From NCBI GenBank assembly GCA_040954595.2, contig CM082579.2, positions 4,205,227 to 4,269,226 of the forward strand: DNA of 64,000 bases, given 5' to 3'. The stretch comes from Balanoglossus misakiensis. Lineage: Eukaryota; Animalia; Hemichordata. Shown here piece by piece: positions 10,466 to 52,725 of the stretch (its first letter is position 1; every line of letters starts with the position of its first letter). Below the pieces are notes generated by a model. It made no database searches. It saw nothing but the letters and a program-made list of their open reading frames with translations, and was not told the DNA's origin. The translations under genes and the position numbers were made by a program.

Positions 10466-11488
10466 TTAGCTTCTATGACTTGAAGTTGGATCCGTACCCA
10501 AAGTCTCGAAAGTATCAACGTTATTTGTGCATTTTGCACAGAACACGAGGCGCATACCCCTTTGGAACTGTTTGTATTTTAGAGCATAAATAAATGGATT
10601 GATTGAGGAGTTGAGAAACCCAATCACTACGCCGACATTGTAAAAGATACCTCCGAAATTGACCTTTGCCCCCAAACAGAAGGCCAGGAAAGTGAGCTGT
10701 GGTAGGCCCCAGCATAAGGCGTACGCCAGAAAGACCAGGATGAGCATCTTCAGGACATTGTTGCTGGCCCGCTTCATGGAGTTGTCTCGCTTGGCAGCTT
10801 CTTGGTCTTGTTGGTTGATGGTGGCCACGTCTGTCAGTGACTTCTTGCTCAGCGCTATGATGCAGCGGGCGTAGGCCACGGACATGACCACCAGCGGCAC
10901 CAGGTACTGGGCGAACACGTTGCTGATGCCGACGAACTTGCCGAACTCCGGGGAGCTCCACATCTTGGCCGTCTTGCACAGACCGCGGTCGAAGTGCTGG
11001 GTGTAGATGTTGAAGGACTTGAAGACGGCGGCCACCAGCCACTCGGCCGTCAGTATCACGGCCACGCGCGCGTTCGTGAACACGGCGGCGTGGTGGAGCG
11101 GGTAAAGGATGGCGTAGTACCGCTCCAGGGTGATCACCACCAGGTTGAAGCTGGACGCCAGGAAACAGGTCCACAGCAGGTAGGCGGACTTCCACATGCG
11201 GCACAGGAATTCGCCGGCGCCCGAGTTCTCGGTGTAGGTGAACTGCGGGCCGAGGTAGTAGAGCACCAACAGGACGGAGGTGATCAGGTCGATGATAGCC
11301 TGGTGGACGATGAGGTAGTTCGTCAAGGTTCGCAACTTTCGTATTCTGAGAAAGACGATGCAGACCAGTAGGTTACCGCCGATCCCCAAGAAGCCAATGC
11401 AGCCCAGCGTCGTGTTCAGCCACCCCAGTTGATTGGAGCTTGTAGTGGACACTGTTCCGTTGTCCACAGTACCGTTGGCTGATGACAT
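10466..11488 (-). CDS. Class A (rhodopsin-like) GPCR, orphan peptide-receptor-like, 340 aa, intronless CDS
   Basis: Seven hydrophobic segments. TM1 GNLLV, TM2 HQAIID, TM3 C...ITLERYY, TM5 YLVP, TM6 CWGLP, TM7 NSSINPFIY, helix 8 FQRG. N-terminal N-glycosylation sequons (NGT, NGT, NTT). A splice acceptor with polypyrimidine tract lies just upstream of the ATG (exon starts 11507). Confidence 0.95.
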   Translation of the reverse strand: MSSANGTVDNGTVSTTSSNQLGWLNTTLGCIGFLGIGGNLLVCIVFLRIRKLRTLTNYLIVHQAIIDLITSVLLVLYYLGPQFTYTENSGAGEFLCRMWKSAYLLWTCFLASSFNLVVITLERYYAILYPLHHAAVFTNARVAVILTAEWLVAAVFKSFNIYTQHFDRGLCKTAKMWSSPEFGKFVGISNVFAQYLVPLVVMSVAYARCIIALSKKSLTDVATINQQDQEAAKRDNSMKRASNNVLKMLILVFLAYALCWGLPQLTFLAFCLGAKVNFGGIFYNVGVVIGFLNSSINPFIYALKYKQFQRGMRLVFCAKCTNNVDTFETLGTDPTSSHRS

Positions 11489-12392
11489 TGTTGAAGTCTT
11501 TCTGATACTATATATGGGGAGGTGAAAACAGGAAAAAAAGACAAATCAGTAAAAATTATCCCCGATATTTTAAGGCATTTACCGGGCGTTCAATTGATTG
11601 TGGCAATCGTTTATATGAACATACAATGTGAACGCATTAGATTCACACAACAGTGAGTTTGCGAGGTATAGAACTGAAAAGTGTTGTCTTCCTGATATAT
11701 CCTGGGGTAATGAAGGCACACATTAGATTACTTTGTTGGCGTACAAGGCCAGTTGAAAAAAACACACACACAAAAACACGTCTTGCGTAGATCGCGTGAC
11801 TCTTTTCTTTTTCGCACTTTGAATTATTTAGAGTGCCAGAATGCATTGGGTATAGTGAACGAGAACGCATACGCCCGCGGCACAGACAAGGGGCAACAAC
11901 CCAAACTTGAAGTGTTCATACTTGACAGGGCTACATCGACTCGGAAAACAGGTATTCCCCCCTCAGCCATAAAATCACCGCTCTGCCTGCGGTTGTTAAG
12001 GATCAATCACCTTGTGCGTCTACAGTAATTGTTTTTGTAAACGTGTTGTCGTAAAAGACAAGACAAGAAAGTGTCTTCGTGATCATGATCGATAACAGTC
12101 ACTGTCAGAGTTGCATGCGCGGCTCTGCAGGCAGGCAAGGGCCCCTAACAGTTAAAATTGATCAGCGGGCGCGATTACAGTCTCGTTCACTGCTCACATG
12201 TGGAAACGTTTGCGCGCGGTTGAGATAGAAGTGACAGGGGACTACAGGAGAACGGACATTACGCGTCAAAAGTCAGCGTTTACCGTCGGGATCAGCCCTG
12301 TAAGTCGACCCAGATAAAGAGGACGGACAACGAAACTAATAACTACCGTAGCATCACGCGCCCCGTGGAAATCGAACCGTGTGCCGGACTAC

Positions 12393-34906: not shown

Positions 34907-37900
34907 ATGGAGACCAGCTTCTCTCCGAAAGGTATGTATAACTCCAGTTACGATCTAATTATCCCGTTTAACGCCAACCAACCTATCCATACACACAGAG
35001 GGGCAGTATAATACAAGGATACGCTAAGCCTTGCAGTATGTGAAGGATAATGGTTTGTAAGTGGCCTCTTATGGAACCAGTGAGTAATGCACTGTAAAGA
35101 AACGCCGCAATAACTGGTTGCTTGTGTGGAAACAACACAACATATACAGCCCACCGTTGTGTTGTGAGTAAAACTGTGTGTAAGGACTGCCTATGCACAG
35201 CGCATAGGCGCATAGCGACTCGAAGCCCACAAGCGGCTGTTAGCCTGTTAGTTGATGGACAGGTGTGGAAACAACACACGCACCACATACAATCAACTCT
35301 TGTGACCTCATGACATGACCTCGTTTCATTATGAAACCTTGAAAGACTTGGAAAATATTGGGTAGCTTAAAGCCAGTGTGTCTTAACTGACTTGTACAAA
35401 AATTAAACTCAAGAGGCTGTGTTGTGCAATTTTATTCAATTCCGCGACGCAGACACTAGGCGGGCCTGGTTGCGAGGTGTCAGTGCCCGCGCACGTGAAG
35501 TGAATCACAACCGCATTCACCAGTCCGTCACGCTCTATACACGAGTTTTGTGCAGCGATAGTTATTTTTTTGTCGCCAGAAACAGTTGTATTGTCAGTGT
35601 CATCCTTCAGGCGATTCAGCGAATTAGCATGTCACTGTCATTACTCACGAGATTATGTATAAAAAATCCCAACGGTCAGTTTTTCAGAGAGAAGACATGT
35701 CGAGATGTCGAGGTTTCAGAAAAGGAATATAATACACACCGACAAGTAAAAATTTATGTGGACTCAGGCTGGTCATGTCCTAAATCCAACTGCATATACA
35801 TGTATATCCCGTCAGTTATTTGTTGCCACAGTGATCGCTACTATACACATAATAAATAAGGTTTGAAGTACTCGGTAACATTGAATTTATTGGGCCTATT
35901 GGCCATAGCGGCCTATTTTCGTGCCTCCTAAGTGGACCATGTTCCGAATTCCACGAGACCTTGCGACATGTTGCGAGGCCAGACAATTTTATATAAAGGT
36001 TTTTTGATTAAATATGTTTTTATTACAACTGATTAAACATCGAACAGACCATTCAAGTTCTTCGTATTTTATTTATTTTAACAGCTTCGCCAAGAAGACT
36101 CAACACTGCGGACAAAGGTATGTGTCCCGTACGCGTGGAAGTTTGGTCACTTTACTGATGAGTTTTCGCTCATCAGTTTATGACACGCCCCTGCGCTTAG
36201 AAGCGGTATCATTTCGCTGATATACATGCTGAATCATCGGAAATAACATTTGTAATCAAGTATTGTGTTATACGGACTATTCTTTTGCATACTTACAGGT
36301 GTCAGTAAAGATCCTATCAGCGGCAGCTACAGAAGTGTCGCAGTTGACGGCAGACGTTTGGAACTTCGCATCGATGTTGACAAAGTAAAACCCTACTCAC
36401 CCGTGCTGAACGCCATCAGTGGGGAAGTCATAGATCACAACGAGGTCAAAGTTTACTTCAGCTCAACTAAAATCACGTAAGTTTCTGTCACGTAAGTTTC
36501 ACAGATTTACATGGGAGATAGCCGTGATGTCTGCGGCGATCGAAATGACACACACAGACGACACAAAACGTGTTTCCCCCTATTATTTAGGAAAGAGTAT
36601 GAAAATCTGATCTCTGGTTTTGGCGTTGCTGTAGAAGATGACAGGAAAGTACCAACACAGCTATCAGTCAAGATACACAAAGACGATGGTGTTTGGAAAG
36701 CAGAAATCATATTACAACAAGTTAATGTCAGCTATGAGTGCACTAAATACAGCGAGGTAAAGTGATTGCTTCATTTTCAGACTTTTAGCCTTTATGTGAC
36801 AATACATCGCTTGATGTCTTCTCAGGTAAAGGCTTTTGCTACCTAGGTGAGTGATGAAAATCTCATATGGTTGACACAATTTCAAGATATCATTTCTTCA
36901 GGCTCTTACAACAGTGAGTTGTCGACCTTTTACCCAGAATGCAATAATTAAAATGTGATGTGACCCCCTAGCACGACGTTAAAACCTATTGAAGGTAGCC
37001 AAAATTCCCGTTCTTGTTTTGGGGAGCAACTGTTCCATGTCCAGCGGTGTGTGTGATCAGTATTTCAGACATGTTGCCGTGGACATAGATTATAGTGGAA
37101 GCGACAAGCTATTCCTGCCGTCGTACAACACGTCTAGTCATCCTGATAGAGCCGCCGACCTTGATGGTGACCGTGAAATCACACTATTTACAGCTTTGGA
37201 GGATGCCGGTATGCAAATCACCCTGGACGAATCCAAATGCAACAAGGTTTGCCATCTAATCTCCTCACATATAAGCTTATAATTCCGATTTCAAAAATCT
37301 TTCACGGCAATACATATATTGCTGGCGTTTTCATTAGTGATAATTGTAGGATACACTCATTCATTTTTACAATCACTGGCGCCCACTATTAATCAGGAAA
37401 CAGCAACTTGATCAATATCACCGTACGTGAACAAAAAAATTGTTTCAACGCATTTTCGTTTCCTCCAGGTCGAAGATCCTGATCCATCCACGCCTTGGAC
37501 CCTAGCTGAACTTTATGAAGTCATGGAGTCACATCATGATAAAGACCCTGCAAAATGGAATATCTGGATTCTGATGGCACCCAAATACAGAGATTCCCGT
37601 ACGGCTGGGTTAATGTTCGACCGAAAGAATCGCAAAGGGTTTGCCATATTCACGGATCACAAGTGGTTTCAAGGTATGAGGGAGGCCGAGAGCCGTGATA
37701 AGATCAAGAGGAAAATCACAGCAACAGCTCTGAGGAGGTTCATTCACACCTTTGTCCACGAGATGGGCCACGCTTTCAATTTGCAACACTCCTGGGACAG
37801 GGGCGACCTAGATTCGCTGTCTTTCATGAACAACGACTACCGCTACGACTGGAGGAACGGCACAGGGTCCTACTTCAAGAACTTCACGTTCTCCTTCGAC

Positions 37901-40900
37901 GAGGAAGAGGTACGGTTCCTGCGCCACGGCAGATCGGCCTGGGTGCAGCCGGGAGTCTCGCCGTTCCTGAAGGATGTAACGCCGAGCAGTTTACCAGCAG
38001 ACGCCGACGGCGATGACGAGCGTTCAAGGAGGTTGAAGTTCACCGTTAAACCGAGCAGGGACTCGTACGTCCAAATGGAAGTGGTCAGGGTGGAACTGAA
38101 GCTACAGAACACCTCCACAAGACCCATCTACGTCGAAAGCAAACTCGACCCCTGCGAGGAATGGGTCTCAGTGTACATAATGAACCCAAATGGTACTGTG
38201 ACCCAGGTTGATTCCTTCGCCAGCGGTGCAGTTGCCGATTACGTCAAACCACTTTATCCTCCCGGTTCCAAAGACGGCGCAGACAGAGTCAGTGAAGTTG
38301 TGCCGTTGGTGTATGGGAAGGACGGGTTCTATTTCAGACAAGTGGGAGATTATCGCATCAAGGCTGTCTACAGCTTCGGCAATTACTACGTCGCCACAAA
38401 ACCGGTGACTATTAGCATCCAGAGATATGGCGGCGAGAGACATCTGCTGGACAGCTTCTTCACTGACAAAGTTGGAGAGTTCATCGCTCTCGGTGGGTCA
38501 AGCGCGCGAAGATTTGAGGCGACAAGACAGTTTATTCAAGCACTGGCGACATCCCAAGACACTCAGGCCTGGGCCGGAGAGATCGCAGCCATCTGTGGTA
38601 AAAATCTTGCTTATTCCTCAAGGAAGGGGTTTACAAAAGTGGGGAACAACTTGACCGTGGAGAAGGAGAGCCCTGAGTTGCCAGATGAGGTCCTTCAATC
38701 AACCCAAGCTACCGTTGACAGACTTCACAGAAGTGGAGAGCAGGCTGATAATATCATGTATCGTCGCTTGGCCTTTCTGAGAGCCGAGATCTACCTGTTG
38801 AAACAAGATCCGAGAAACGCGGACAGAGAAGTCAGAGATATGACTAGAAGTCTCAAGTCTCGGAAAGTGAAGGAGTACGTAATAAACGAGATTGACCTGG
38901 AATGGAAGACGAGGCGAGGAGATATTGGTCGGCTTCCCTCCAGCATGGACCCTCAGAGAAGAGAAATGTGGCGAGTCGTCCAACCCAGGTCCGAGGAGCT
39001 TCAAGAATGGGTCAAGCGAATCATGCACTGGACGGGTGAGGAAGATGACGGTGGCATTGGTGTCGATGGTGTTGATGATGAAGATGATGACAGTGGTCTT
39101 GGGCATGGCACAGAATTCTCCGCATTTGATGACCAACATCTGCTAGCGTCCGATGACGTCATCGAGCAGATCTTCAGCAAAGCCGACGAGTCCCGAGATA
39201 TTGTCGAGACTTTGGAGTTCGTCAATTCTCTGCAGCACAGCCGTCAATACAATCACACCTTGATCAAGTACGCCCTCAAGATATTCCTCACTCATCACGT
39301 TCTAGCACGAAGCAACCGGCTCAAAGTGCCAGAGATCATTGACGAACCGTCTGGGTGGGATGCGGCCGCCCATGCTATGGTCCCGCCAATAGGCGAACCG
39401 CAAGAGATCTGGATGAATTACTGGAGAAACGACGCCGATTTTGTGGACCACCACCGACACTGGCATGAGACGTACCGAGCACGTGGTCTGCCGGGCACAG
39501 AAGCCGCGCACTTGGACCGCCAGGGCGAACTGTTCGGATACATGCACGAACAGATGCTGGCCAGGTACAACGCGGACCGGGAGTCGTGGGGGCTCGACCC
39601 TGTCGAACCGTGGCACTTCACCGACGTGGATGAGCTCGGCAGTGACGCTGGCGAGGAATTCCACAGCAGCCCACAAAACCGGCAGGTCCGACCACGCCCA
39701 CCGGGGTCGAAGTGGCCGCAGCACAGAGTCGTGCAGTTCAGGCGCTGGAGAGACAACATTCGCAGAGCCCTCCGGGCGGGAGTCTTGCAGCCCGATCGCG
39801 GCACGGATTTCCGCGCTTTTCGATTCGAAGACAACAACGACCTGGAAAATCCCTCCAACAGCGCCGCAAACTGGGTCGGCCACATCGTGGAAGCGACATC
39901 CGGGGCTTTCTCTGATACCTACGGCAGCGTTCACAACATGGGCCACGTGGTCTTTGGTGCACTGGACCAGCCGCGTCGGTTCCGTAGTTACATGGCAACG
40001 CCCGACCACGCTGTCCGGGACCACATCTTCTTTCGATGGCACAAGTTCGTCGACAATCTCATCGACGAATACCACAGCACGAAGAGAACGGAGCTGGCAG
40101 TGGACGCGCCACCAGTGGTCGTAAGAGGGAATGATATCGTGATCAGCACATCGGAAAAATTACCGGATGGGTTTTCCGAGTGGTCGGGAAACGGATGGGG
40201 GAATGGAGAATTCACAAGCAGCACAATCAACACAACGATAGACCTGCCCCAGCGACAGTTCGAATTCGGCAAGCTTACACACGAGCCGTTCTACTATCAC
40301 ATCCGCATCAGACGAAACGGGTCACCAGGACAGGAACTGCGACTGACGCTTCGAATATTCATCTGCCCCGCCAGACATGAAGACGACCGGAGACGCTGGA
40401 TAGAAATGGATAAATTCCGGTACATCTTGGCGGCAAATGAAACGCACGCTGTCATCACGAGAAAGGACAAGCATTCCTCGGTGATTCGGAGAGATCCACG
40501 CGACAGCGACGTACAAGACGACCTGGAGATGCCACTCGCTCGCACGGTCAGTGGGTTCTGCGAGTGCGGCTGGCCGTACAACCTCCTGCTTCCCAAAGGA
40601 ACCCGAGGGGGGGAGCCTTATCGCCTGGCCGTGTACATATCAGACAACAGCGTAGACTCTCTCCGGATCCGCTCGTCCTGCGGAAGTCTCAGCTACTGCG
40701 GTGCCCGCGACAACCGCTACCCGGACCGCCGTCAGATGGGCTACCCTTTCGCCACGCCAGCTACGGTGAACGGTGGCGAGGTGACTGTGACGGAGGCCGT
40801 TCAACAGCTCGACAACTTCGCTCTGACGTCGTTTGCCATCAAGAACAGAGATAGGCGGTTTGGAGAGGAGGAGACACCCGTCATACTCAGGTTGTTGGAA

Positions 40901-41715
40901 CCACCTGTTGAGTTTGTAGTCGGATGGCAAGCCCGTCAGCAGCTGAAACTGAGAGCCAGCGAAGAATATCGGCGCAGCAACTGGACAGGACGATTCCGAG
41001 TTTTAATCGATGGCAGTGCGTTGACGGAAACCAATGCGTTTGCTGATAAGCCATATGCTAAGTTGCGGTTAAAAGTAAGTTAATAAATCGCTTAAAATAT
41101 CACATTTGAATCAATACATACCTTTGTTGCTATTCTGTTGTTTTTGTCATCGTCATGTTTAATTTTGTGACCTCCATGATAGGTCATACCAGTACTTGTA
41201 AACTGGCCAATATCATTACCCTTTCTTGGAAACTTTGAAAGTCCTCGTATGTTGGCCAGAAGAGGTTGACGCGCTCAGTAATCAAAGGAATGTCAAGTTT
41301 GAAAGTATTTCGCCTTTTCTCCAACTAGGGCCGTGGAACTGGTCATGGCGAATACAGGGTGTCCGGTGTCACTTTAGCAGAACGGAGAGGGCGATCTCTA
41401 GATGTAACAGGCCCGCACCACAGCGTCACTTTCGACGACGGGAAGTCGTCTGCGTCAGTCCCGGAAATGGGAACCGAAAGCGACCCCATCGAAATGGTAC
41501 TCGTGCCAGACGTCGACTACTTCGTGACATTCACTTTAGAGACGCCGTCCGTGTACCTGGTTGGCCGCAGAGAGACGTGCACCTGGTTCATCGCCAATCC
41601 TGAGGGCGGGGCGAGACACGAGATGAATTGGGACTTGCGGGAGGTCCGAGACCAAATCTCAGAGACACGGCGCAACCTCTACATGGTGGACCGCATACTG
41701 GTTAATGAAAAGTGA
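34907..41715 (+). CDS. Metzincin metalloprotease - prophenoloxidase/hemocyanin (arthropod-type, type-3 copper) fusion protein, ~1526 aa, 7 exons
   Basis: Phase-consistent exons 34907-34931, 36085-36117, 36299-36476, 36591-36756, 37061-37246, 37469-41074 and 41329-41715 (4581 nt). Zinc motif HEMGHAFNLQH (37757-37789) followed by Met-turn-like SFMN. CuA HHRHWH...GELFGYMHEQMLARY (39449-39547); CuB HNMGH...DHIFFRWH (39932-40042); hemocyanin C-domain CECGWPYNLLLPKG and YPDRRQMGYPF. No signal peptide. The first two small exons are the least certain. Confidence 0.9.
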
Positions 41716-42626: not shown

Positions 42627-44499
42627 TCATGATTCGTCTTCTCTTTTCTTGATATTTCTGTTTCCAATTTTCCTTTTCTTAAAACCGACGTTGACCTTTT
42701 CGCTGCCACCACCAATACTCCCAACAGTCTTTTCTTTGAATTTGATCTTAATCTTTGGTTCTTCTAATGCTATGGTAACCGGCGGGGCTACATAACTTGC
42801 CCTTGCGTCCGGCAGCTGCAAGTCTGGAGTTTCCCTGTGTGAGGAGAAGAGAATACACAAGCATTGATAACTGTAGAACTGGACAATGAATTATCCCACA
42901 AAAAAACGAGTGACCTAGCTTGATCACCTGCAAAGAAGTAGATTTACACTGTGAAATACTACTTACGAGCTAACTGGTTCAATGGCTTGCCAGGTACCGT
43001 ACGGATTTGATCTCTTCTTTGATGTACTTTTAGTCTGTTGGTCATTTGTTTTCTCTGTGCTGTCGGTAGCCTGTTACAAACACATAGAAGGAAAAAATGC
43101 TTCATTAATATGGTGCATAACCCCCTCCTTTCCTTGTCGAAACAGAAGTCCAAACATAATGAAAGATGTCTGTTTATGTAGTCTCAAACATATGACAATG
43201 CATGATATTTCAATGATGCAGAAAAAATTTCATGGGTTTAATTTACACTCTTACGTTTTCATCTTTTGTTTCTTTTGGTTTGTCGTCAGACTTGCTTCCT
43301 TCTCCTCCTCCTCGTCCTTCATCTTCTGTCTCCTCTTTATCTTCCTGCTCAGTCTTCTCTGTTGATTGGTCAGCTGGCTGCTTTTCTGTTTGTTCCTCTG
43401 GCGATTGTTCTTCTGCTTGTTGTGATGTTTGGTCTTCTGACTGTTGTTGTTCTAATGACTGGTTATCTGTTGTTGACACAAAACCCTCTGGCTTTTCCCA
43501 TGAGGACTCTGAACGACAAAGAGAAATGTTTCATTTTGTGACTTCCATCAATCTTTGCTGCCATTGTTCTCCAAAGCAGTTACTCAATATTATTGTATAC
43601 ATTTGCTTACCACCAGTAAAGCTGTTCCAGAAGTATGTGTACCCCTCAGGTGAGACACCTTCCACCCAATACGGCAGTATATCCTCGGCTTTGGGATGGG
43701 ACTCTGTGCTGCTTTGTTCTGTTGGCTTTTCTGATTCTGAAAGACAGGGATATCAACACACTGACTGAGGGAGTGATCTTGCTTCTTGCTCTATGACAAT
43801 GGAAAGAAATGAACACGACGTACTATAGCAATAAACCCGACTGCATATCTGTGAGTCACTGTGTTTCATGGTAAAGTTACAGCTACACACACACACCTTG
43901 CATTTGCGACTTCTTTTGGAGGACTGCATTCTTGTATTGACCTGCTAATTTTGGATCTCTTTGGACGTCTTGCTGGAATGCCTTCAGAGCTGCCTGGGAA
44001 TGTGCACAAGATATCAAAAATTTTAATTTCCAATGAAACCAGTCACGCACAAATTTTACTATGATCTATACGAAGCACCTCATCATGGTCAATAGGTGTT
44101 GAATAGCAAGTGTTGACAATCTTGACAGTGTTTGATCACAACCCCGCCTCCCAACTTACCTCTTCCATAGCCTGGAGATCACTTTTGAAAGCAGCATCTT
44201 TCTTTTCTTTCGCTACACTTTTCTTCTGTATGTCGCTGATCCTTTTCTGTACATTTTCGTTGTGGCGTTTCCCTCTCTCATGGAAATCTACACTCTGCAA
44301 ACATAAAGATATCGAAATGCTTTTTTAAAGACAAGTTGAGATCATTGAGAAGTGCTGGGTTGAATATTTGCTTCGGCATTTACCACTTGGCTGCAGATGA
44401 TGCAGGTGTGAAAAATTTGAACTTACAGCTTTATTGTCTGTGATCCAACACTTGCAGAAGTCACAGAACTTCTTGGGTTGTGATTTCCAGTACTCAGAC
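42627..44499 (-). CDS. WBP4: WW domain-binding protein 4 (FBP21), spliceosomal matrin-type zinc finger + WW domain, ~332 aa
   Basis: Exons 44499-44427 (SEYWKSQPKKFCDFCKCWITDNK), 44294-44160 (FHERGKRH), 43993-43897, 43736-43611 and 43508-43255 (WW: WVEGVSPEGYTYFWNSFTGESSWEKP), 43070-42967 (NPYGTW), 42834-42627 (KFKEKTV...FKKRK). The ATG is split by an intron (AT|G). The AT lies either at 44800-44799 (GTAAGT donor) or near 45071-45070 (better Kozak context). Confidence 0.93.

Positions 44500-45536: not shown

Positions 45537-52725
<7,189 letters not shown>

What the first reader, a model, noticed from the sequence alone, without database searches (positions are those of the whole stretch)
34907..41715. 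Metalloprotease-prophenoloxidase fusion: candidate self-activating melanisation enzyme
Seen: one uninterrupted exon (37469-41074) encodes, in order, a metzincin zinc site (HEMGHAFNLQH with catalytic Glu, then Met-turn-like SFMN), an Ig-like beta-sandwich, a helical region, an acidic linker (EEDDGGIGVDGVDDEDDDSG) and a full arthropod-type hemocyanin/phenoloxidase with all six copper His. Both activities sit in one exon, so the fusion is not a gene-model artefact. Established: arthropod prophenoloxidases are signal-peptide-less zymogens switched on by proteolysis through clip-domain serine protease cascades, and this cytosolic subclass of type-3 copper proteins occurs patchily outside arthropods. 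Inference: this protein may carry its own activating protease in cis, replacing the cascade with a single-chain immune or wound-response switch. I do not know of this architecture having been described.
Basis: partly seen in the sequence, partly recalled or inferred. Interest (0 to 1): 0.93.

Follow-up and report, generated by a model that had tools for sequence, protein, structure and literature searches.

The report
Ancient animal protease-phenoloxidase fusion protein
This acorn-worm gene joins a bacterial-type zinc protease to a copper oxidase of the melanin-making kind in one chain, as do genes of sponges and sea squirts (whose published phenoloxidase CinPO1 is only its rear half), and the protease likely switches the oxidase on by cutting it free.

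Summary
Seven GT-AG exons give a stop-free 1526-aa protein, 70% identical over its length to Ptychodera flava XP_070552735, so the host is an enteropneust hemichordate. The front half is a whole-length homologue of an unnamed prokaryotic metzincin family. The rear half is a beta-subclass type-3 copper oxidase with six His, the placeholder Phe and the catalytic Glu, plus an unknown C-terminal domain. The same fusion occurs in Glandiceps, four tunicate genera, the sponge Dysidea and unnamed animals. Trees of the two halves share 12 of 13 splits, which points to one old fusion. Ciona CinPO1 (794 aa) is the rear half of a 1501-aa model. The acidic 'linker' lies where arthropod prophenoloxidases carry their cleavable pro-region, and in hemichordates it lacks Arg/Lys. 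Self-activation is plausible but untested. Against it: the loop is not conserved, bacterial homologues work without an oxidase (1 of 50 genomes has one), Ptychodera keeps a protease-only copy, and a review credits serine proteases with ascidian activation. Ten literature searches found no description. Verdict: a real, apparently undescribed variant of a known family.

The parts
34907..34931 (+). exon 1, ATG; no signal-peptide-like stretch
   Evidence: splice sites, alignment to P. flava N-terminus; hydropathy proxy
36085..36117 (+). exon 2
36299..36476 (+). exon 3, first part of the N-terminal beta-barrel domain (about aa 25-134) shared with the prokaryotic homologues
   Evidence: fold of the P. 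flava paralogue aa 29-136 matches lipocalin-like barrels at Z up to 9.8
36591..36756 (+). exon 4, rest of the beta-barrel
37061..37246 (+). exon 5, start of the metzincin catalytic domain; both flanking phase-0 introns are at the same places in L083, from an unnamed animal
37469..41074 (+). exon 6 (1202 codons) holding the zinc site, Ig domain, helical domain and the whole copper oxidase
37757..37789 (+). zinc motif H293-E294-x-G-H297-xxxxx-H303 (HEMGHAFNLQH)
   Evidence: sequence; H293, E294, G296, H297, L301, H303 invariant in 13 of 13 aligned full-length fusions
37826..37828 (+). Met316, predicted Met-turn
   Evidence: invariant; metzincin fold
38018..38425 (+). Ig-like beta-sandwich (about aa 380-515)
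38426..38950 (+). helical domain (about aa 516-690); prokaryotic homologues end here
38951..39031 (+). short basic junction and first helix of oxidase domain I (aa about 703-717 align to residues 1-16 of arthropod hemocyanin/PPO)
   Evidence: first aligned residues 505-511 of the exon-6 model against chain residues 1-8 in the hemocyanin and PPO rows
39032..39094 (+). acidic loop (aa 718-738, net charge -11, no Arg/Lys) at the position of the PPO pro-region; candidate activation site
   Evidence: pro-region 17-81 with R51/F52 in AgPPO8 from PMC4700666 passages
39095..39385 (+). rest of oxidase domain I, with invariant F749 (39125-39127), inferred placeholder Phe
   Evidence: position inferred by analogy to F99/F49
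39386..40105 (+). dicopper domain: H858, H862, H889, H1018, H1022, H1054; E1004 and N1019 match AgPPO8 E364 and N380
40106..40855 (+). hemocyanin Ig-like domain III with the two conserved Cys pairs (C1227/C1229, C1267/C1273)
40913..41715 (+). C-terminal domain of about 180 aa (end of exon 6 plus exon 7, 41329-41715); among the proteins fetched found only in this fusion family; no Pfam match

Best explanation
The gene encodes one 175-kDa chain in which a prokaryotic-type metzincin protease unit (barrel, catalytic, Ig and helical domains) is fused in front of a complete beta-subclass type-3 copper oxidase; it is likely a stored, latent phenoloxidase whose own protease would cut the acidic loop at the pro-region position, within the chain or between copies, and so free a predicted 87-91 kDa active oxidase. 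Shown: the gene, both intact sites, their conservation, the shared history of the two halves, and the position of the loop. Inferred from the family: phenol oxidase rather than oxygen-carrier activity, latency, storage without a signal peptide and release from defence cells (by analogy to the tunicate members). Untested: that the protease is active, that its substrate is its own chain, and what triggers it (Ca2+, Zn2+ or the redox change on release are guesses). Origin, inferred: a single fusion in an early animal of a protease gene probably gained from bacteria with a resident beta-subclass oxidase, then many losses; transfer between animal lineages is not excluded.
For: Both sites are kept together. 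37 of 39 fetched proteins of 1400 aa or more match all six motif patterns, and the 2 misses still keep every metal ligand and the Glu; the set includes isoforms and near-copies. Trees of the two halves share 12 of 13 splits over 16 fusions. The protease halves of 21 animal rows form one side of a branch against 80 prokaryotic or unnamed rows, SH-aLRT 100. Purifying selection on the protease half within the species: 23 synonymous and 5 non-synonymous differences, pN/pS 0.06 (40 of 55 differences listed, one sample). The predicted catalytic domain has the metzincin fold, Z 10.1-10.6 over about 166 residues to ADAM/ADAMTS/archaemetzincin. The exon-6 model has pTM 0.86 over 1200 residues, which suggests packed halves. 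The oxidase aligns from its first helix to Limulus hemocyanin 2-628 (Z 38.5) and AgPPO8 1-697 (Z 36.1), putting the loop where AgPPO8 has its cleaved pro-region. The loop has no Arg/Lys in the window or P. flava, so a trypsin-like activator has no site in it. One unnamed protein independently fuses an intact subtilase to the same oxidase type (P0190).
Against: No residue of aa 691-738 is invariant. The loop is basic in Clavelina P0032 and only mildly acidic in the sponge group, so there is no conserved cleavage motif. The protease has a life without the oxidase: 1 of 50 prokaryote genomes that carry it has a Hemocyanin_M match, none of 80 loci shows a fused oxidase, and P. flava keeps a 700-aa protease-only copy with an intact site. 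A review states that ascidian PO is assumed to be activated by serine proteases (PMC5465252 passage), and basic residues lie just upstream of the loop in most members. [quoted passage not shown] I could not inspect model coordinates, so whether the zinc cleft can reach the loop is unknown, and the folded construct lacked the first 196 and last 130 residues.
Confidence: 0.42

Rival explanations
1. The protease unit acts as a large cap or scaffold that keeps the oxidase latent; an outside serine protease cuts at basic residues near the junction, and the freed metzincin then attacks other targets (microbes, matrix).
For: Serine-protease activation is reported for ascidian PO (PMC5465252; PMC9395347). 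Arg/Lys occur in the junction and first helix of most members. High pTM fits a packed cap. Protease-only copies exist.
Against: No basic residue is conserved at one position. The review words the ascidian mechanism as an assumption by analogy with arthropods.
Confidence: 0.28
2. Two effectors delivered as one uncleaved chain: the protease cuts proteins or peptides to supply Tyr/DOPA substrates, or opens matrix, and the oxidase cross-links or makes toxic quinones at the same spot.
For: Long co-inheritance without a conserved cleavage site. Ascidian PO substrates are thought to be phenol-containing peptides. A tyrosinase gene (alpha type) lies near the protease gene in 5 of 80 prokaryotic loci, directly upstream in 4 related Acidobacteriota.
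Against: The placeholder Phe and a pro-region-like loop are kept, which suggests a latent form. The bacterial neighbourhood is one clade plus one locus and involves a different oxidase subclass.
Confidence: 0.2
3. The rear half is an oxygen carrier or a non-oxidase (AsqI-like) protein, and the database name 'hemocyanin' is literally right.
For: Best structural and sequence matches are chelicerate hemocyanins, and the Glu and Asn are also present in them.
Against: No signal peptide by proxy; intact members occur in sponges; tunicate members are described as phenoloxidases; all six copper ligands are kept.
Confidence: 0.05
4. Artefact: two genes read as one, a contaminant, or a dead protease domain.
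For: RefSeq splits the Saccoglossus locus into two models; no RNA was laid on this locus here.
Against: One exon holds both sites. The two Saccoglossus pieces overlap by 17 identical residues. Spliceosomal introns, animal neighbours, independent full-length models in six named genera and pN/pS 0.06.
Confidence: 0.03

Closest known systems
Tunicate 'arthropod-like' phenoloxidases: Ciona hemocyanin-like protein 1 (CinPO1, CAD68058.1), LOC100180038, Botryllus phenoloxidase A0A0S1S6G3
   Same: Same clade. CAD68058.1 (794 aa) is 97.9% identical to residues 710-1501 of XP_078491500.1, a full fusion with an intact zinc site. The Botryllus sequence aligns to Styela 776-1546 and starts at a Met that is internal in Styela.
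   Different: In the passages I saw they are treated as stand-alone oxidases with no protease half. The window's protein is the hemichordate orthologue, 31-34% identical over full length. That LOC100180038 is CinPO2 is my inference from recalled size.
Arthropod prophenoloxidase / hemocyanin (AgPPO8 4yzw, Manduca 3hhs, Limulus 1lla); beta-subclass of Aguilera et al. 2013
   Same: Three-domain fold Z 36-38, six His, Glu364 and Asn380 equivalents, two Cys pairs, no signal peptide.
   Different: No Pfam Hemocyanin_N hit; separate clade from arthropod and Asterias proteins; pro-region replaced by a short acidic loop without the Arg-Phe site; 700 extra residues in front and 180 behind.
Unnamed prokaryotic metzincin family of about 670-800 aa (HE[AMIL]GHAFN[FL]xH)
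   Same: Homologous over the whole front half, about 30% identity (E 8e-82 to P0147), same predicted fold (TM 0.76-0.84); found in at least 9 bacterial phyla and one archaeal MAG.
   Different: Stand-alone; no Pfam or NCBIfam family above cut-off; no solved structure by sequence; function unknown.
Metzincins with structures (ADAM/reprolysin, ADAMTS, archaemetzincin, ulilysin)
   Same: Catalytic fold Z 9.4-10.6, zinc motif and Met-turn position.
   Different: 11-18% identity; Asn instead of Gly in the motif in hemichordates, sponges and bacteria (Gly in tunicates); no signal peptide; a barrel in front instead of a recognisable pro-peptide.
P0190, unnamed subtilase (S8) + Hemocyanin_M + Hemocyanin_C protein, 1226 aa
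   Same: A protease with intact catalytic motifs fused N-terminal to the same oxidase type.
   Different: Different protease clan, single sequence, groups with the mostly microbial oxidases; uncharacterised.

Membership tests
Type-3 copper protein, beta subclass | Six copper His in CuA/CuB | tested here: met
   H858, H862, H889, H1018, H1022, H1054 align to hemocyanin/PPO ligands and are invariant in 13 of 13
Type-3 copper protein, beta subclass | No signal peptide, no transmembrane segment | tested here: met
   hydropathy proxy only (max 9-residue mean 0.21 in first 40 aa; max 19-residue mean 0.92); SignalP not run
Type-3 copper protein, beta subclass | Aromatic placeholder from domain I over the site | tested here: inconclusive
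   F749 invariant at the expected place; contact with the site not inspected in the model
Arthropod prophenoloxidase | Hemocyanin_M and Hemocyanin_C domains, catalytic Glu | tested here: met
   E1004 aligns to the Glu 15 residues before the first CuB His of AgPPO8
Arthropod prophenoloxidase | Hemocyanin_N sequence signature | tested here: not met
   no PF03722 hit at E up to 1; the domain I fold is nevertheless aligned
Arthropod prophenoloxidase | Pro-region with Arg-Phe site for a trypsin-like activator | tested here: not met
   loop aa 718-738 has no Arg/Lys; site defined
Arthropod prophenoloxidase | Groups with arthropod PPO/hemocyanin in a tree | tested here: not met
   fusion clade 99-100, apart from the Hemocyanin_N-bearing rows (quick trees, one named arthropod)
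Phenoloxidase (function) | Oxidises mono- or diphenols | not testable with these tools
   needs an assay
Metzincin | HExxHxxGxxH/D motif | tested here: met
   HEMGHAFNLQH has the three His and the Glu; Asn replaces Gly, tunicate orthologues have Gly; consensus from PMC9445424 passages; that Asn is an accepted variant is recalled
Metzincin | Met-turn | tested here: met
   M316, 13 residues after the third His, invariant in alignment A2 of 28 and 13 fusions; its place under the zinc not inspected
Metzincin | Catalytic fold | tested here: met
   model of P. flava paralogue P0003, aa 138-354, Z 10.6, rmsd 4.2, 166 aligned; the top 12 rows are all metalloproteases over this range
Metzincin | Peptide-bond hydrolysis | not testable with these tools
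   needs an assay
Named metzincin families (M10, M12, M43, M54) | Score over the family cut-off | tested here: not met
   Pfam scores 11-21 bits against cut-offs 20.6-29.6; no NCBIfam match
Horizontally acquired domain | Animal sequences nested inside prokaryotic ones in a rooted tree | tested here: inconclusive
   animals are one side of a branch, unrooted; no non-animal eukaryote was named among the protease homologues seen, but many rows are unnamed and only the best 150 of 1449 were listed

The most novel reading that the evidence does not exclude
Sponges, tunicates and hemichordates share a second, unrecognised prophenoloxidase system: a single-chain zymogen that carries its own activating metalloprotease of bacterial origin and needs no clip-protease cascade. 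The ascidian phenoloxidases studied for twenty years are the rear halves of these 170-kDa precursors, and the large enzyme forms read as dimers may be the uncut precursor.
Probability: 0.38. Interest if true: 0.88.

Novelty: new variant of a known kind. Interest (0 to 1): 0.74.

Why it matters
How phenoloxidase is kept silent and switched on outside arthropods is open; for ascidians the serine-protease route is worded as an assumption by analogy. Showing that CinPO1 and its relatives are the rear halves of 1500-aa proteins with an intact metalloprotease makes this directly testable in Ciona and Botryllus, with one point mutant and an antibody to each half. Computed masses are 172 kDa for the full chain, 87 kDa for the rear half and 66 kDa without the last domain. 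They can be checked against published gel bands (I recall 170, 120 and 90 kDa for Ciona and 160/80 kDa for Botryllus; not verified). The finding also defines an uncharacterised metzincin family that spans many bacterial phyla, and a candidate very early bacteria-to-animal transfer hidden from domain surveys because Pfam does not detect the domain.

Tried and rejected
No genome is held for the window. No RNA holder listed; this says nothing on expression. Complex prediction of the two halves was not available: no verdict. The search for longer proteins covered only 2707-5000 aa and found nothing, so it did not test 1200-2700 aa fusions. A metagenome scan with a sponge-type protein found no locus. 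Foldseek on the 700-aa model gave low-TM multi-domain matches (GH3 glucosidases, glycopeptidases), not used. No solved structure of the protease family by sequence (best E 0.03). The C-terminal domain got only Atlas leads under 0.9 and was not folded. The idea that a bacterial operon of protease plus beta-type oxidase was transferred whole is not supported: 0 of 80 loci had such a neighbour and 1 of 50 genomes had the domain (the 80 are the best of 468 from one motif and include about 20 near-redundant Arthrobacter-group loci). 27 of the longer microbial-type oxidases showed no protease domain. The careful oxidase tree did not finish; the quick one is quoted. Literature: ten searches found no description of the fusion. 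The Cammarata 2008 paper was not held. Earlier scan findings: none. Contamination and split-gene readings were rejected (see rivals).
Full report
Observation. The long frame is real. Seven exons with GT-AG introns give 1526 aa without a stop, and the product is 70% identical end to end to Ptychodera flava XP_070552735.1. Neighbours in the window are animal genes: a rhodopsin-family receptor, an MBT-repeat exon and a tRNA-Ser. In both trees the window's protein is closest to P. flava, then Glandiceps and Saccoglossus, so the host is an enteropneust hemichordate; I did not identify the species. Contigs from another sample of the species show 11 listed indels over 9 kb, none in an exon. In the protease half of exon 6 they show 23 synonymous against 5 non-synonymous differences, pN/pS 0.06 (40 of 55 differences were listed).

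Front half. Residues 1 to about 683 are homologous over their whole length to stand-alone prokaryotic proteins of 670-800 aa with HExGHAFNxxH. A scan of bacterial and archaeal genomes gave 468 confirmed relatives, of which the best 80 were kept. No Pfam or NCBIfam family names them, and no solved structure matches by sequence. A model of the P. flava protease-only paralogue (pLDDT 83.8) resolves into a lipocalin-like barrel, a catalytic domain matching ADAM, ADAMTS, archaemetzincin and ulilysin at Z 9.4-10.6, an Ig sandwich and a helical bundle. His293, Glu294, His297, His303 and Met316 are invariant among 13 aligned fusions, and the catalytic domain is about as conserved (45% mean pairwise identity) as the oxidase core (51%). 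This is what an active metzincin looks like; activity itself is untested.

Rear half. Pfam Hemocyanin_M and _C match strongly, Hemocyanin_N does not. The six copper His, the Glu and Asn that correspond to AgPPO8 E364 and N380, and the two Cys pairs are present (residues defined in PMC4700666, passages seen). The exon-6 model (pLDDT 87.4, pTM 0.86) superposes on Limulus hemocyanin 2-628 (Z 38.5, rmsd 2.8, 529 aligned) and AgPPO8 1-697 (Z 36.1), starting at exon residue 507-508, model residue about 703. In AgPPO8, residues 1-16 belong to domain I and 17-81 are the pro-region with the R51/F52 cleavage site. The helix at 703-717 is therefore the first helix of the oxidase, and the acidic stretch 718-738 stands in the pro-region's place, just before the invariant F749. 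The aligner reports only first and last aligned residues, so this is an inference from ranges. A further 180-aa domain follows; among fetched proteins it occurs only in this family.

Distribution. Full-length fusions with both sites are on record, mostly as 'uncharacterized', for P. flava, Glandiceps talaboti, Ciona intestinalis (two genes), Clavelina lepadiformis (two), Phallusia mammillata, Styela clava and the sponge Dysidea avara, plus many unnamed ENA/JGI proteins that group with Dysidea. An unnamed intron-bearing animal group is sister to the hemichordates and shares two intron positions with the window gene (L083). The two Saccoglossus models overlap by 17 identical residues and are probably one gene. 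Of 39 fetched proteins of 1400 aa or more, 37 match all motif patterns and the other 2 keep all ligands; the set is redundant. Ciona hemocyanin-like protein 1 (CAD68058.1, 794 aa) is 97.9% identical to residues 710-1501 of the current 1501-aa model. The searches were word-limited or cut at 150 rows, so absence from other phyla is not shown.

History. Animal protease halves are one side of a branch against 80 other rows (SH-aLRT 100). Fusion oxidase halves form a clade (99-100) apart from Hemocyanin_N-bearing proteins such as a bee phenoloxidase and an Asterias protein (quick trees). Trees of the two halves share 12 of 13 splits. One fusion followed by co-inheritance fits best. The P. flava protease-only gene is sister to the P. 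flava fusion, so it is a later partial duplicate. A bacterial source of the protease is likely but unrooted. Bacteria do not pair it with this oxidase type (0 of 80 loci, 1 of 50 genomes), though 5 of 80 loci have an alpha-type tyrosinase nearby and one unnamed protein fuses a subtilase to the same oxidase type (P0190).

Mechanism. I favour self-activation (0.42): a latent oxidase, a protease tethered to it since early animals, and a loop at the activation position that in hemichordates offers no trypsin-type site. Cutting there would give about 84 + 91 kDa. Against it, the loop has no invariant residue and is basic in one Clavelina gene, the protease exists alone in bacteria and P. flava, and ascidian PO is said to be activated by serine proteases (PMC5465252, passages). 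The cap-plus-outside-activator reading (0.28) and the two-effectors reading (0.20) remain open. From memory only, not verified: Ciona tunic zymograms with 90, 120 and 170 kDa bands and weak inhibition by soybean trypsin inhibitor (Cammarata 2008); 80 and 160 kDa forms in Botryllus; release of a metalloprotease from Halocynthia hemocytes on LPS. The computed 172 kDa of full-length Ciona proteins makes these worth re-reading.

Literature seen. Passages only: PMC3730353 and PMC3658974 list hemichordate, tunicate and sponge members and report no 'protease' occurrence in the main text; PMC9395347, PMC5465252, PMC4700666, PMC9445424, PMC4784904, PMC7401272, PMC6916515, PMC10817596, PMC2866484. Term searches with no relevant hit: PMC4729200 main text (supplements not read) and PMC13390645 main text and its one held supplement. 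Ten library searches found no description of the fusion. The primary ascidian PO papers are in subscription journals that I could not read, so 'undescribed' is provisional.

Verdict. Real, conserved and apparently unnoticed: a new architecture within the beta-subclass type-3 copper proteins, carrying an unnamed metzincin family. It is not an arthropod prophenoloxidase by membership, but probably works like one with a different switch. Interest 0.74; self-activation, if shown, 0.88.

Noticed in passing
P0190 (unnamed ENA protein, 1226 aa): Subtilase S8 with intact Asp/His/Ser motifs fused to a Hemocyanin_M/C oxidase with six His: a second, independent protease-oxidase fusion.
   Followed up: partly
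L046:2-1180, L047:3627-5195, L057:3817-5334, L062:6093-7616 (Acidobacteriota); L053:3892-5475: A tyrosinase (PF00264; with PPO1_DWL and DUF7868 in the four Acidobacteriota) lies directly upstream of the stand-alone metzincin, with a similar second gene further up in three loci; possible pro-tyrosinase activation unit.
   Followed up: partly
P0003 (P. flava XP_070552437.1) and P0126/P0017/P0306 (Glandiceps): Protease-only duplicate in P. flava with an intact site; Glandiceps has a full fusion plus a second copy annotated in two pieces.
   Followed up: partly
P0122 (Asterias amurensis, 703 aa): An echinoderm carries a Hemocyanin_N-bearing, arthropod-type protein, so deuterostomes hold two separate beta-subclass lineages.
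   Followed up: partly
L004-L070, Arthrobacter/Paenarthrobacter group loci: The metzincin gene is followed by a TM0106-type nuclease-helicase gene in 24 of 80 loci, mostly this one group.
   Followed up: no
Atlas cluster of 111 members: OmpA-domain proteins of 737 aa align structurally to much of the protease unit (TM 0.58): a possible further fusion of the family.
   Followed up: no
L098-L100 and L083/L088/L097: Intron-bearing copies in metagenome contigs: L098 is closest to the tunicate LOC100180038-type genes, L083 and L097 to the unnamed group sister to hemichordates.
   Followed up: partly
window 36830-36950: Intron 4 holds a short high-copy repeat (summed contig depth above 14,000, many loose ends) that is missing in one contig.
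   Followed up: no
window 33851-33932 (-), 10466-11545 (-), 48744-52455 (+), 42627-43530 (-): tRNA-Ser(CGA), an intronless rhodopsin-family receptor, an MBT-repeat gene, and a convergent gene ending about 900 bases downstream (recalled as WBP4-like; no Pfam match).
   Followed up: no
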